This document shows, one piece after another, positions 38,616 through 39,079 of a stretch of 42,461 nucleotides of DNA. The notes beneath the pieces were generated by a model. That model was given only the letters and a program-made list of their open reading frames with translations, made no database searches and was not told where the DNA came from. The first letter of the stretch is position 1. Each line of letters opens with the position of its first letter. The DNA is from a virus (taxonomy: Duplodnaviria; Heunggongvirae; Uroviricota; Caudoviricetes), in IMG/VR virus record IMGVR_UViG_2703719365_000009, one strand, 5' to 3'. The translations under genes were made by a program, and so were the position numbers.

Positions 38616-38798
38616 ATGACATTCGTTCATACAATGCTGCTTTATTTCTGCGCTGTGGTCAGTGCGTTATATCTGGTGAGCGGTGGTTATAAGGTCATCA
38701 GAAATTATATTCGCCGTAAAATTGATGATGCGGCAGCTGAAAAACTCAGTAAAACAGCACAGGCACCGTCATCCCCAAACGACCCGACCCCGCTCTGA
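38616..38798 (+). CDS. Small membrane protein (single TM helix), cargo
   Basis: 60 aa; RBS AAGGTAAGG; hydrophobic N-terminus MLLYFCAVVSALYLVSGG. Confidence 0.55.
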   Translation: MTFVHTMLLYFCAVVSALYLVSGGYKVIRNYIRRKIDDAAAEKLSKTAQAPSSPNDPTPL

Positions 38799-38833
38799 TA
38801 ACGGGGCAATATACCTGCAAAAGGAGAATATTC

Positions 38834-39079
38834 ATGCCAGAGATTAAAGGCACGGTTACTGAAGAGCTTGTCAAACAGGCACTTTATTCTGAAGAAGTGA
38901 ACCGCGTGCTGAAGGCGCAGGTTCGCAAGGATTTTGAGGCACAAATCGACGCATATGTTGATGAAGTGCTGGCCCGAATGGTTGGCCGTTCTCCGGCTGA
39001 AAACAGCACGGAAAATGATCCTCAACCCGTAGAGCAACCAGAGCCGGTTCAGCCCGGAACTGACGGTACTATGATGTAA
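38834..39079 (+). CDS. Small acidic protein, cargo
   Basis: 81 aa; RBS AAGGAGA 7 nt before ATG. Confidence 0.55.
   Translation: MPEIKGTVTEELVKQALYSEEVNRVLKAQVRKDFEAQIDAYVDEVLARMVGRSPAENSTENDPQPVEQPEPVQPGTDGTMM

What the first reader, a model, noticed from the sequence alone, without database searches (positions are those of the whole stretch)
38616..39079. Two small strongly initiated genes downstream of the esterase
A 60-aa single-TM protein and an 81-aa acidic protein, each with a strong RBS, follow the esterase. A small membrane protein paired with a small soluble acidic protein is a common layout for toxin-antitoxin-like modules, lysis or secretion accessories, and superinfection exclusion modules. 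Their function is unknown.
Basis: inference. Interest (0 to 1): 0.35.

Follow-up and report, generated by a model that had tools for sequence, protein, structure and literature searches.

The report
Esterase-linked small phage gene pair
The two small genes are real and conserved members of the uncharacterised DUF1378 and DUF826 phage families; they always travel directly behind a sialate-esterase gene in E. coli prophages, so they are a known gene pair of unknown function, not a new toxin-antitoxin or defence module.

Summary
Both ORFs exist exactly as described. 38616-38798 encodes a 60-aa single-pass membrane protein (Pfam DUF1378, E 1e-38). 38834-39079 encodes an 81-aa acidic protein (Pfam DUF826, E 3e-15). 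Both are under purifying selection.

The window is a Mu-like prophage inserted in gene J of a lambdoid prophage. The pair lies between gin and com/mom, behind a NanS-p-type SASA esterase.

The same order, esterase-DUF1378-DUF826, lies between stx/nanS-p and holin S in about 300 Stx and lambdoid phages. A P2-like prophage carries esterase plus DUF1378 only. In 98 distinct loci with enough upstream DNA, 97 have the esterase directly upstream and one has an interrupted esterase. Esterases without the pair do exist.

So the constant partner is the esterase, not the holin. A 2026 preprint shows this esterase is a capsid decoration protein in phage phi24B.

No toxin-antitoxin, defence, holin or structural homology was found, and the function remains unknown. 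My best guess, at low confidence, is a membrane-anchored accessory pair that serves the esterase cassette.

The spacer upstream of DUF1378 also holds a conserved minus-strand sRNA gene that resembles PasA/PasC.

The parts
36430..38469 (+). NanS-p-type carbohydrate esterase. It has a SASA catalytic domain and a C-terminal DUF6645 domain. Its N-terminal ~105 aa have no known family and stand where Stx-phage NanS-p has the DUF1737 domain. This is the first gene of the cassette.
   Evidence: Pfam PF03629 (6.5e-12) and PF20350 (2.4e-69). The alignment with the Stx-phage esterase shows the N-terminal swap. No Pfam family matches residues 1-110.
38468..38503 (-). GC-rich hairpin (38475-38503) followed on the minus strand by U7 (38474-38468). 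This is an intrinsic terminator for minus-strand transcription, directly abutting the esterase stop codon. On the plus strand it is an A7 run plus a hairpin with no U-tract.
   Evidence: Folds at -14.7 kcal/mol on the minus strand and -23.2 on the plus strand (z = -5.4). Present in nearly all of 52 spacer variants, with different stem sequences.
38468..38597 (-). Candidate PasA/PasC-like sRNA gene. It has a -35 TTGACT (38597-38592), an 18-nt spacer and a -10-like TAAAAA (38573-38568). The predicted start is near 38561. A UUCG-capped stem-loop (38547-38534) and a U-rich stretch lead to the terminator above, giving an RNA of about 90 nt. It is antisense to any read-through transcript from the esterase gene into DUF1378.
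   Evidence: TTGAC, the N17/18 spacing and TAAAA are nearly invariant across 22 divergent spacers from lambdoid, Mu-like and P2-like loci. Covariance model R1 hits the E2348/69 PasC locus (E = 0.026) and the esterase-proximal unit next to PasA (E = 1e-4). PasA and PasC are minus-strand, Hfq-bound, northern-verified sRNAs downstream of the esterase gene (PMC8550237 table S6). Expression of this window's copy has not been shown.
38616..38798 (+). DUF1378 family protein, 60 aa. It has a predicted N-out/C-in single transmembrane helix with the invariant motif LYF...LYL.SGGY. A conserved basic amphipathic juxtamembrane segment follows (R29, R33, I36-D37, A40, E42-K43), then a variable Pro-rich tail.
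   Evidence: Pfam PF07125, 1.2e-38, full length. phrog_494. Alignment A1. Physical properties. dN/dS 0.19.
38834..39079 (+). DUF826 family protein, 81 aa, cytoplasmic and acidic. It has a short helix (10-17), a long amphipathic helix (20-50) and a disordered acidic Pro/Glu/Gln-rich tail. The tail ends in Met-Met here and in similar Met/Leu-rich ends in most, but not all, relatives.
   Evidence: Pfam PF05696, 2.8e-15. phrog_311. AlphaFold2 model with pLDDT 86-97 over residues 11-50 and about 50 in the tail. Alignments A2 and A5. dN/dS 0.20 in the N-domain and 0.43 in the tail.
39089..39108 (.). Hairpin closing the cassette, CCGGCAGG-TTTC-CCTGCCGG, followed by GTGAGTTTGTT. It is a likely terminator for the esterase-DUF1378-DUF826 transcript. 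On the other strand it could terminate the 154-aa ORF.
   Evidence: Folds at -20.7 kcal/mol (+) and -18.3 (-), z = -3.6 for both. The equivalent hairpin in Stx phage ArgO145 has a clear U6 tract just before holin S.

Best explanation
Shown:
- The two ORFs are genuine genes of the DUF1378 (PF07125) and DUF826 (PF05696) families.
- They are the last two genes of a conserved mobile cassette: NanS-p-type SASA esterase, then a convergent PasA/PasC-like sRNA gene, then DUF1378, then DUF826, then a hairpin.
- In Stx and other lambdoid phages this cassette sits between stx and holin S. In this window it lies at the right end of a Mu-like prophage, between gin and com/mom.

Inferred:
- The pair has no plus-strand promoter of its own and is transcribed by read-through from the esterase gene. 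In lambdoid phages that means late transcription. The antisense sRNA in the spacer could modulate this read-through.
- DUF1378 inserts N-out/C-in in the inner membrane and presents a conserved basic amphipathic helix to the cytoplasm.
- DUF826 is a cytoplasmic acidic helical protein with a disordered acidic tail. It probably docks on DUF1378, giving a small membrane-anchored complex.
- Because the esterase gene, intact or interrupted, lies directly upstream of the pair in every locus examined with enough upstream DNA, while holin, phage backbone and virion type all change, the complex most likely serves the esterase. It could handle the assembly, retention or release of this virion-borne enzyme at the membrane late in infection. 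It is less likely to be a toxin-antitoxin pair or a holin-specific regulator.

The biochemical activity itself is unknown.
For: Family membership. Purifying selection, including within the Mu-like lineage (window vs L105: dS 0.76, omega 0.23).

Synteny:
- Of 98 distinct IMG/VR loci with at least 2.3 kb upstream, 97 have the esterase ending less than 500 nt upstream. The remaining one has an interrupted esterase.
- The downstream neighbour varies: holin in 64 loci, com/mom in 24, P2-like tail genes in 1.
- The same trio occurs in Citrobacter lambda-like prophages.

Nested distribution in 50,697 phage records: esterase in 347, DUF1378 in 309, Stx-type DUF826 in 306. The per-organism counts for the pair are almost identical to each other and are contained in those of the esterase.

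Age of the linkage: synonymous sites are saturated between the Mu-type and Stx-type alleles (dS above 1.5 or not computable), so the linkage is old, not a recent block transfer.

Transcription: no sigma-70-like plus-strand promoter lies between 38470 and 38615, the hairpin after the esterase has no plus-strand U-tract, and a conserved hairpin follows DUF826.

Esterase biology: in phage phi24B the esterase is a capsid decoration protein bound through its N-terminal DUF1737 domain (preprint 10.64898/2026.04.10.717836). The Mu-type esterase carries a different N-terminal domain. This is what one would expect if the enzyme is re-adapted to each virion.

Charge complementarity: DUF1378 residues 26-45 carry +6/-3, DUF826 residues 20-50 carry -7/+5, and the tail carries -6/+1 (read from the sequences).
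Against: - No experiment, structure or homolog links either protein to the esterase.
- Esterases of a second clade (about 53% identical) lack the pair. They occur in E. albertii, Escherichia sp., EPEC E2348/69 and many Stx1 phages. The pair is therefore dispensable for esterase function.
- Physical adjacency alone can explain co-transfer. The Mu-like and P2-like contexts may reflect only two capture events.
- Allele types of DUF1378 and DUF826 recombine freely. For example, an IRNY-type DUF1378 occurs with a Stx-type DUF826, and in L007 a DUF826 99% identical to the window's follows a different DUF1378. There is thus no sign of co-adaptation between them.
- Neither protein was found in the held part of the phi24B virion proteome table. 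This is weak evidence: the file was cut when stored and small proteins are easily missed.
- The interaction between the two proteins could not be tested. The AlphaFold run on a natural frameshift fusion returned no contact information.
Confidence: 0.35

Rival explanations
1. Autonomous host-directed moron. The pair acts on the host membrane on behalf of the lysogen or the infected cell, for example by superinfection exclusion at the DNA-entry step or by modulating a host membrane protein. On this reading it only hitch-hikes next to the esterase.
For: - The transmembrane helix is highly conserved, including polar and small residues (S22-G23-G24-Y25, Y10, Y19). This suggests specific helix-helix contacts rather than a simple anchor.
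- GC content is lower (48%) than in the Mu-like body (55%), as is typical of morons.
- A hairpin closes the unit just before the lethal holin gene in Stx phages.
- The pair stays intact in decayed Mu-like remnants, including one with a frameshifted esterase (L004).
- No gin-proximal terminator was seen, so low-level prophage expression from gin read-through is possible (read by eye).
Against: - No own promoter was found on the plus strand.
- No PADLOC match with E below 0.05.
- The pair was never seen without an esterase, or an esterase remnant, directly upstream when upstream DNA was available.
- Known exclusion proteins are usually single genes (from general knowledge).
Confidence: 0.25
2. 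Lysis-timing accessory. DUF1378, alone or with DUF826, modulates holin, pinholin or SAR-endolysin action. The analogy is to antiholin or releasin-type helpers, or to a membrane-anchored plus cytoplasmic regulator pair such as T4 RI and RIII (recalled from memory).
For: - In lambdoid phages the pair lies immediately upstream of the class II holin, lysozyme and Rz genes, in the same late transcript.
- In the P2-like prophage L080 the esterase and DUF1378 lie directly after Rz/Rz1.
- The architecture, a small bitopic membrane protein with a charged C-terminus plus an ~80-aa cytoplasmic helical protein, fits this class.
Against: - In the Mu-like phages the pair is far from the lysis genes, yet it is still under purifying selection.
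- Many phages with the same holin and lysozyme lack the pair.
- No holin or antiholin family matched.
- The pair tracks the esterase, not the holin.
Confidence: 0.2
3. Toxin-antitoxin module. Either type II (membrane toxin plus acidic protein antitoxin) or type I (a small hydrophobic toxin controlled by the antisense sRNA encoded in the upstream spacer).
For: - Two small adjacent co-directional genes, one hydrophobic and one acidic.
- A conserved minus-strand sRNA gene lies 20-150 nt upstream of the DUF1378 start. It would be antisense to a read-through leader.
Against: - No toxin, antitoxin or DNA-binding domain was found. The only PADLOC match is weak (PbeC, E = 0.05).
- The sRNA is PasA/PasC-like. 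It also occurs, and is expressed, in loci that lack DUF1378 altogether (EPEC E2348/69). It therefore belongs to the esterase locus, not to DUF1378.
- The sRNA does not overlap the DUF1378 ribosome-binding site or ORF.
- The pair is not found in varied genomic contexts, as TA loci are.
- The P2-like locus keeps DUF1378 without DUF826. That would be lethal if DUF826 were the antitoxin.
Confidence: 0.03

Closest known systems
DUF1378 / DUF826 gene pair of Stx-converting and other lambdoid phages (for example phi24B vb_24B_23 / vb_24B_24, and ArgO145 gp76 / gp75)
   Same: Same two Pfam families, same order and short spacing, and the same position directly behind the nanS-p-type esterase gene. The upstream spacer has the same architecture. 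The literature notes them only as proteins of unknown function between nanS-p and S (PMC10462455).
   Different: The window's copies are only about 52% (DUF1378) and about 39% (DUF826) identical to the Stx-phage copies. They sit in a Mu-like prophage between gin and com/mom, with no holin downstream. The accompanying esterase has a different N-terminal domain. The STnc100 and AsxR/AgvB sRNA genes found upstream of the esterase in Stx phages are absent here.
Receptor-binding or glycan-active virion protein plus its downstream accessory or chaperone gene (for example tail fibre plus Tfa modules; comparison from general knowledge)
   Same: A virion-borne carbohydrate-active protein whose small downstream gene or genes are inherited with it as one exchangeable cassette across unrelated phage backbones.
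   Different: Known fibre chaperones are soluble and are required for folding. Here one partner is a membrane protein, a whole esterase clade does without the pair, and no chaperone family is matched.
Membrane-anchored plus cytoplasmic lysis regulators (T4 RI / RIII antiholins, P1 LydA / LydB; recalled from memory, not tested)
   Same: A small membrane protein paired with an ~80-aa soluble helical protein, encoded next to lysis genes in the lambdoid and P2-like settings.
   Different: There is no sequence or profile similarity. The predicted topology (N-out/C-in, with almost no periplasmic part) differs from RI. The pair persists away from lysis genes in Mu-like phages.
Type I toxin-antitoxin loci (hok/sok, ldr/rdl, tisB/istR; from general knowledge)
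   Same: A small hydrophobic single-TM protein with a nearby oppositely oriented sRNA gene that ends in an intrinsic terminator.
   Different: The sRNA is a PasA/PasC-type trans-acting Hfq sRNA that also exists without DUF1378. The DUF1378 ribosome-binding site shows no predicted occluding hairpin in the terminator/hairpin scan. A second protein gene follows in the same operon.

Membership tests
Pfam PF07125 (DUF1378) | Profile match above the curated gathering score over the full ~59-residue model | tested here: met
   131.5 bits against a cut-off of 25, E = 1.2e-38, residues 1-59 on model positions 1-59 of 59. Also phrog_494 at 3.5e-34.
Pfam PF07125 (DUF1378) | About 60 aa with one N-terminal hydrophobic helix and the conserved LYF...LYL.SGGY...R...R..ID..A.EK pattern | tested here: met
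   The invariant columns of alignment A1 are all present in the window protein. The Kyte-Doolittle maximum is 2.02 at residues 3-21.
Pfam PF05696 (DUF826) | Profile match above the gathering score on the N-terminal helical domain | tested here: met
   56.7 bits against a cut-off of 25, E = 2.8e-15, residues 1-52 on model positions 1-54 of 75. phrog_311 at 6.6e-30 over residues 1-80.
NanS-p esterase cassette (esterase - DUF1378 - DUF826) | SASA + DUF6645 esterase gene ending less than 500 nt upstream, on the same strand | tested here: met
   The esterase ends at 38469, a 146-nt spacer follows, and the strand is the same. The same arrangement holds in 97 of 98 informative loci.
NanS-p esterase cassette (esterase - DUF1378 - DUF826) | Location between stx or Q and holin S of a lambdoid late operon | tested here: not met
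   Here the cassette lies between gin (35770-36330) and com/mom (39652-40588) of a Mu-like prophage. This is a relocated copy of the cassette.
Type II toxin-antitoxin | A recognisable toxin fold or family, and an antitoxin with a DNA-binding domain | tested here: not met
   Pfam finds only the two DUF families. NCBIfam has no hit. The only PADLOC match is weak (PbeC, E = 0.05). No solved-structure or Foldseek match was found.
Type II toxin-antitoxin | A self-contained unit found in many unrelated genomic contexts | tested here: not met
   The pair is always directly downstream of the esterase. The P2-like locus keeps DUF1378 without DUF826.
Type I toxin-antitoxin | A cis- or divergently encoded antisense sRNA that is specific to the small hydrophobic toxin gene | tested here: not met
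   A minus-strand sRNA gene is present in the spacer. Its homologues PasA and PasC occur in E2348/69 loci that have no DUF1378.
Holin / antiholin | Membership of a holin family, or adjacency to an endolysin gene | tested here: not met
   No holin family was matched. In this window the neighbours are the esterase and com/mom. The adjacency holds only in the lambdoid and P2-like relatives.
Moron (independently transcribed prophage cargo) | Own promoter upstream and own terminator downstream | tested here: inconclusive
   A terminator-like hairpin lies at 39089-39108. No plus-strand sigma-70 promoter lies in 38470-38615. The conserved hexamers there read as a minus-strand promoter. Only transcript mapping can settle this.
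PasA/PasC sRNA family (for the spacer element 38468-38597, minus strand) | A minus-strand gene convergent with the esterase gene, with its own promoter and ending in a stem-loop plus poly-U next to the esterase stop codon | tested here: met
   TTGACT-N18-TAAAAA, then about 90 nt, then a hairpin and U7 abutting the stop codon. PasC of E2348/69 ends 2 nt after the esterase stop and has the same layout.
PasA/PasC sRNA family (for the spacer element 38468-38597, minus strand) | Sequence and structure homology to PasA/PasC, and Hfq-dependent expression | tested here: inconclusive
   Covariance model R1, built from 22 spacers, hits the PasC locus at E = 0.026 and the PasA-adjacent unit at E = 1e-4. 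The model includes promoter and flanking columns, and the RNA body is divergent. There is no Rfam family for it. Expression is not testable here.

The most novel reading that the evidence does not exclude
DUF1378 and DUF826 form a dedicated membrane-anchored partner system for a virion-borne glycan esterase, and selection keeps the three genes together across lambdoid, Mu-like and P2-like phages. On this reading the pair would do one of two things. It might stage esterase loading onto particles at the inner membrane. Or it might provide a route for releasing the signal-peptide-less NanS-p enzyme. Either would be a kind of accessory not described for capsid or tail decoration enzymes.
Probability: 0.15. 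Interest if true: 0.6.

Novelty: already known. Interest (0 to 1): 0.3.

Why it matters
These two genes sit in the late region of most Stx1a, Stx2a and Stx2c phages, right between the toxin/esterase genes and the lysis genes. They occur in hundreds of sequenced E. coli genomes, yet nobody has assigned them a function.

Three results here narrow the hypotheses worth testing:
- the pair tracks the esterase rather than the holin;
- it has stayed under purifying selection after moving into a Mu-like phage;
- it is not a recognisable toxin-antitoxin or defence system.

If the pair does help to load or release NanS-p, that would bear on two questions: how EHEC prophages supply a sialic-acid-scavenging enzyme, and how Stx phage particles interact with mucus. 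By itself, the occurrence in this window is an ordinary copy of a known, uncharacterised cassette.

Tried and rejected
1. Toxin-antitoxin or defence reading. PADLOC, Pfam and NCBIfam gave nothing beyond the two DUF families. Rejected, for the reasons given under the rival explanations.

2. Type I TA idea, prompted by the conserved minus-strand promoter and terminator upstream of DUF1378. Rejected, because the element is PasA/PasC-like and exists without DUF1378 in E2348/69.

3. AsxR or AgvB as the identity of the spacer sRNA. Rejected: in Stx phages they map upstream of the esterase, next to STnc100, and the window has no Rfam hit.

4. Structural homology. The DUF826 AlphaFold2 model is a helix plus a disordered tail. 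Foldseek against BFVD gave no match with E below 4, and profile searches of PDB sequences gave nothing significant for either protein.

5. Test of a DUF1378-DUF826 contact by modelling the natural frameshift fusion P0175. The model had modest confidence and the tool returns no contact or PAE information, so the result is inconclusive. An alignment that also included DUF1378 rows was misaligned by MAFFT and was discarded.

6. 'Rosetta-stone' fusions annotated with both Pfam domains (P0127, P0170, P0175). These are single-contig frameshift products, not real fusions.

7. Searches for context outside enterobacterial prophages.
   - A scan of species-representative genomes with DUF1378 found nothing.
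   - Distant DUF826 members were not found in IMG/VR or metagenome contigs.
   - They turned out to come from E. coli, Citrobacter and Pantoea.
   - The exhaustive profile search found only 64 clusters at 50% identity, so the family is narrow.

8. The 153-aa antisense ORF at 38705-39166. Long antisense open frames occur in many variants, but their frame and length are not consistent. It is treated as a shadow ORF.

9. A plus-strand promoter in the spacer. None is convincing.

10. Virion proteome of phi24B. Neither peptides nor coordinates of the two small proteins appear in the stored part of the table. This is weak negative evidence only.

11. Locus-tag literature searches (ECs1208 and similar, vb_24B_23) gave nothing functional. 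The only mention is an in-silico 24B_1 binding site upstream of vb_24B_23.

12. Paralogues of the two proteins, or of the esterase N-domain, elsewhere in the window. None were found.
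Full report
**What is there.** The window carries the two ORFs exactly as described.
- ORF 38616-38798 (+) encodes 60 aa, pI 9.3. It has a single hydrophobic helix near the N-terminus followed by five basic residues. By the positive-inside rule this predicts an N-out/C-in bitopic inner-membrane protein; that topology is an inference.
- ORF 38834-39079 (+) encodes 81 aa, pI 4.34, with no hydrophobic segment.
- The second gene has a canonical AAGGAG 7 nt before its ATG. The first has AAGGTAAGG 4-9 nt before its ATG.
- Both follow a 679-aa SASA + DUF6645 esterase gene (36430-38469) after a 146-nt spacer.

**They are real genes of named families.**
- The 60-aa protein matches Pfam DUF1378 over its full length (131.5 bits, E = 1.2e-38). 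The 81-aa protein matches DUF826 (56.7 bits, E = 2.8e-15). PHROGs files both under 'unknown function', and NCBIfam has no model.
- In a locus 100% identical in DNA to this part of the window, RefSeq annotates the two genes as WP_000144787.1 and WP_001114104.1.
- Across 47 and 54 distinct alleles, median pairwise dN/dS is 0.19 (DUF1378) and 0.31 (DUF826; 0.20 in the N-domain, 0.43 in the tail). Both are therefore translated and constrained.

**Setting.** The window is a Mu-like prophage.
- The finding region is 98.9% identical to the 'inserted Bacteriophage Mu-like phage' annotated in two Stx phage records.
- The neighbours are a tail fibre gene with an invertible segment, gin (35770-36330), then the esterase and the pair, a variable 154-aa minus-strand ORF, and com/mom (39652-40588). 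The C-terminal part of a lambdoid J tail-tip gene follows.
- The prophage thus interrupts gene J of a lambdoid prophage. The ends are approximately 1337 and 40720 (not refined).

**The pair is part of a cassette that travels with the esterase.**
- In Stx and other lambdoid phages the order esterase-DUF1378-DUF826 lies between stx and holin S (ArgO145, PhiR5_2, phi24B). One paper mentions the two DUFs there, only as unknowns (PMC10462455).
- I fetched 147 IMG/VR loci with DUF1378 or DUF826 profiles and mapped reference proteins onto them. Among 118 distinct loci, 114 carry both genes. The exceptions are L080, which lacks DUF826, two loci cut off at a contig end, and one with a truncated DUF1378.
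- Of 98 loci with at least 2.3 kb upstream, 97 have the esterase ending less than 500 nt upstream. The other has an interrupted esterase.
- The downstream neighbour varies: holin/lysozyme/Rz in 64 loci, com/mom in 24, and tail genes in one P2-like prophage. In that prophage (L080) the esterase and DUF1378, without DUF826, lie between Rz/Rz1 and the tail genes.
- Citrobacter lambda-like prophages show the same trio.
- Several Mu-like variants in E. coli genomes keep the trio while swapping alleles of individual genes.

**Distribution is nested.** In the phage genome collection the esterase is found in 347 records, DUF1378 in 309 and Stx-type DUF826 in 306. The per-organism counts for the pair are nearly identical to each other and lie inside those of the esterase. 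A second esterase clade, about 53% identical, has no pair. It occurs in E. albertii, Escherichia sp., EPEC E2348/69 and many Stx1 phages. So the pair implies the esterase, but not the reverse. Synonymous sites are saturated between Mu-type and Stx-type alleles, and selection continues within the Mu-like lineage. The linkage is therefore old and is maintained away from any lambdoid holin.

**What the proteins look like.**
- DUF1378 has an unusually conserved transmembrane helix (LYF...LYL.SGGY). A conserved basic amphipathic segment (R29, R33, I36-D37, A40, E42-K43) and a variable Pro-rich tail follow it.
- The DUF826 AlphaFold2 model has a short helix (10-17) and a long helix (20-50) with pLDDT 86-97. 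A disordered acidic Pro/Glu/Gln-rich tail follows. It ends in Met-Met here and in similar Met/Leu-rich ends in most relatives.
- There is no significant match in PDB sequences, BFVD folds or PADLOC.
- An exhaustive profile search finds only 64 clusters at 50% identity. Named members are from E. coli, Shigella, Citrobacter and Pantoea. The family is narrow and phage-borne.
- The opposite charges of the two helical segments suggest that DUF826 docks on the cytoplasmic part of DUF1378. I could not test this. A model of a natural frameshift fusion was uninformative, and allele types of the two genes recombine freely.

**What is known about the esterase.** A 2026 preprint reports that phi24B gp84 (NanS-p) is an abundant virion protein. 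Its N-terminal DUF1737 domain sits as a hexamer on capsid hexons, and the protein is processed after release (10.64898/2026.04.10.717836). The Mu-type esterase here has an unrelated ~105-aa N-terminal domain with no known family. The P2-like copy keeps DUF1737. This fits an enzyme module re-fitted to different virions. Neither small protein appears in the stored part of the phi24B proteome table, but that is weak evidence.

**Transcription (inferred).**
- No plus-strand sigma-70-like promoter lies in the spacer, and the hairpin after the esterase stop has no plus-strand U-tract.
- A conserved hairpin follows DUF826. In Stx phages it carries a clear U-tract just before holin S.
- The simplest reading is one transcript covering esterase, DUF1378 and DUF826. 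nanS-p expression rises on mitomycin C induction in STEC (PMC10462455), so the pair is probably a late product in lambdoid phages.
- In the Mu-like phage I saw no terminator between gin and the esterase (read by eye).

**An sRNA gene in the spacer (side finding).**
- Fifty-two spacer variants share one architecture: stop codon, an A5-8 run, a GC hairpin with varying stems, about 45 nt, T5-7A, 17-18 nt, then GTCAA.
- Read on the minus strand this is TTGAC(A/T)-N17/18-TAAAA(A), a transcript of roughly 60-100 nt depending on the variant, and a hairpin plus U7 terminator abutting the esterase stop.
- In the window the transcript would span about 38561 to 38468, with a UUCG stem-loop and a U-rich stretch.
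- This matches the position, strand and layout of PasC, and of the esterase-proximal unit next to PasA. These are Hfq-bound, northern-verified sRNAs of EPEC E2348/69 (PMC8550237 table S6; preprint 10.64898/2026.05.13.724894).
- A covariance model of the spacers hits those loci at E = 0.026 and E = 1e-4.
- The E2348/69 loci have no DUF1378, so the sRNA belongs to the esterase locus. It is not a DUF1378-specific antitoxin. It would, however, be antisense to any read-through transcript from the esterase gene into DUF1378, and might modulate expression of the pair (inference).

**Verdict.** The genes are ordinary members of two known but uncharacterised families, in a relocated copy of the NanS-p cassette.
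- The toxin-antitoxin reading is disfavoured.
- A holin-specific role is weakened by the Mu-like context.
- An esterase-linked, membrane-anchored accessory role is the best-supported guess (about 0.35).
- An autonomous host-directed moron (about 0.25) and a lysis-timing helper (about 0.2) are live rivals.
- Nothing here is categorically new. The value lies in narrowing which experiments to do.

Noticed in passing
window 38468-38597, minus strand: A conserved minus-strand promoter (TTGACT-N18-TAAAAA), a predicted ~90-nt RNA and a hairpin+U7 terminator lie in the esterase-DUF1378 spacer. Position, strand and layout match the Hfq-bound sRNAs PasC and PasA of EPEC E2348/69. The same architecture is present in lambdoid, Mu-like and P2-like copies of the cassette, and Rfam has no model for it.
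   Followed up: yes
window 42-1349 and about 40720-41369; prophage ends near 1337 and 40720: The Mu-like prophage is inserted inside gene J (tail tip) of a lambdoid prophage. The J fragments flank it, and ATGTT(TGT) occurs at both junctions, consistent with a 5-bp target duplication. The exact ends were not refined.
   Followed up: partly
window 36430-36750 (esterase residues 1-105): The Mu-type esterase has an N-terminal domain with no known family where Stx-phage NanS-p has DUF1737, the capsid-binding domain in phi24B. This suggests the enzyme was re-fitted to a different virion. No paralogue of this domain exists elsewhere in the window.
   Followed up: partly
window 39118-39582, minus strand: A 154-aa basic ORF (phrog_26524, unknown function) with two CPAC motifs occupies a variable slot between DUF826 and com. 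Other Mu-like variants carry different small genes there or a frameshifted copy.
   Followed up: partly
L138 96-6036 (IMGVR_UViG_2617270951_000022): A hybrid locus: gin, a Mu-type esterase, Stx-type DUF1378 and DUF826, holin, lysozyme, Rz. It looks like recombination between a Mu-like and a lambdoid prophage through the shared cassette, or possibly an assembly chimera.
   Followed up: no
L080 4228-7657 (IMGVR_UViG_2671181127_000013): A P2-like prophage carries a DUF1737-type esterase plus DUF1378, but no DUF826, inserted between Rz/Rz1 and the tail genes. The same PasC-like spacer is present.
   Followed up: partly
L003 2518-2777, L066 2597-2871, L162 1903-2162, compared with the window: In Stx phages the sRNA genes STnc100 and AsxR or AgvB lie just upstream of the esterase gene. 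The Mu-like copy in the window has none of them (no Rfam hit in the whole window). Only the downstream part of the lambdoid region was carried over.
   Followed up: partly
proteins P0127, P0170, P0175; Stx-type loci such as L162 4433-4879: In Stx-type copies the DUF826 reading frame stays open upstream into the 3' end of DUF1378. This explains why many records annotate 128-141-aa 'DUF826' proteins, and why a few single-contig frameshift products look like DUF1378-DUF826 fusions.
   Followed up: partly
window 38705-39166, minus strand: A 153-aa ORF lies antisense to both small genes. Comparable antisense open frames occur in many variants, but their length and frame are not consistent, so it is most likely a shadow ORF.
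   Followed up: yes
window 39089-39108, and the equivalent hairpin in L003 within 5476-5505: A conserved hairpin follows DUF826. In Stx phages it is a clear plus-strand terminator placed immediately before the holin gene. That would insulate S from any Q-independent transcription of the esterase cassette.
   Followed up: partly
L004 2782-5437 (E. coli HCP4S3_I4): A decayed Mu-like remnant (transposase genes, IS1, right end) has a frameshifted esterase but intact DUF1378 and DUF826. This single case hints that the pair may outlive the esterase.
   Followed up: no
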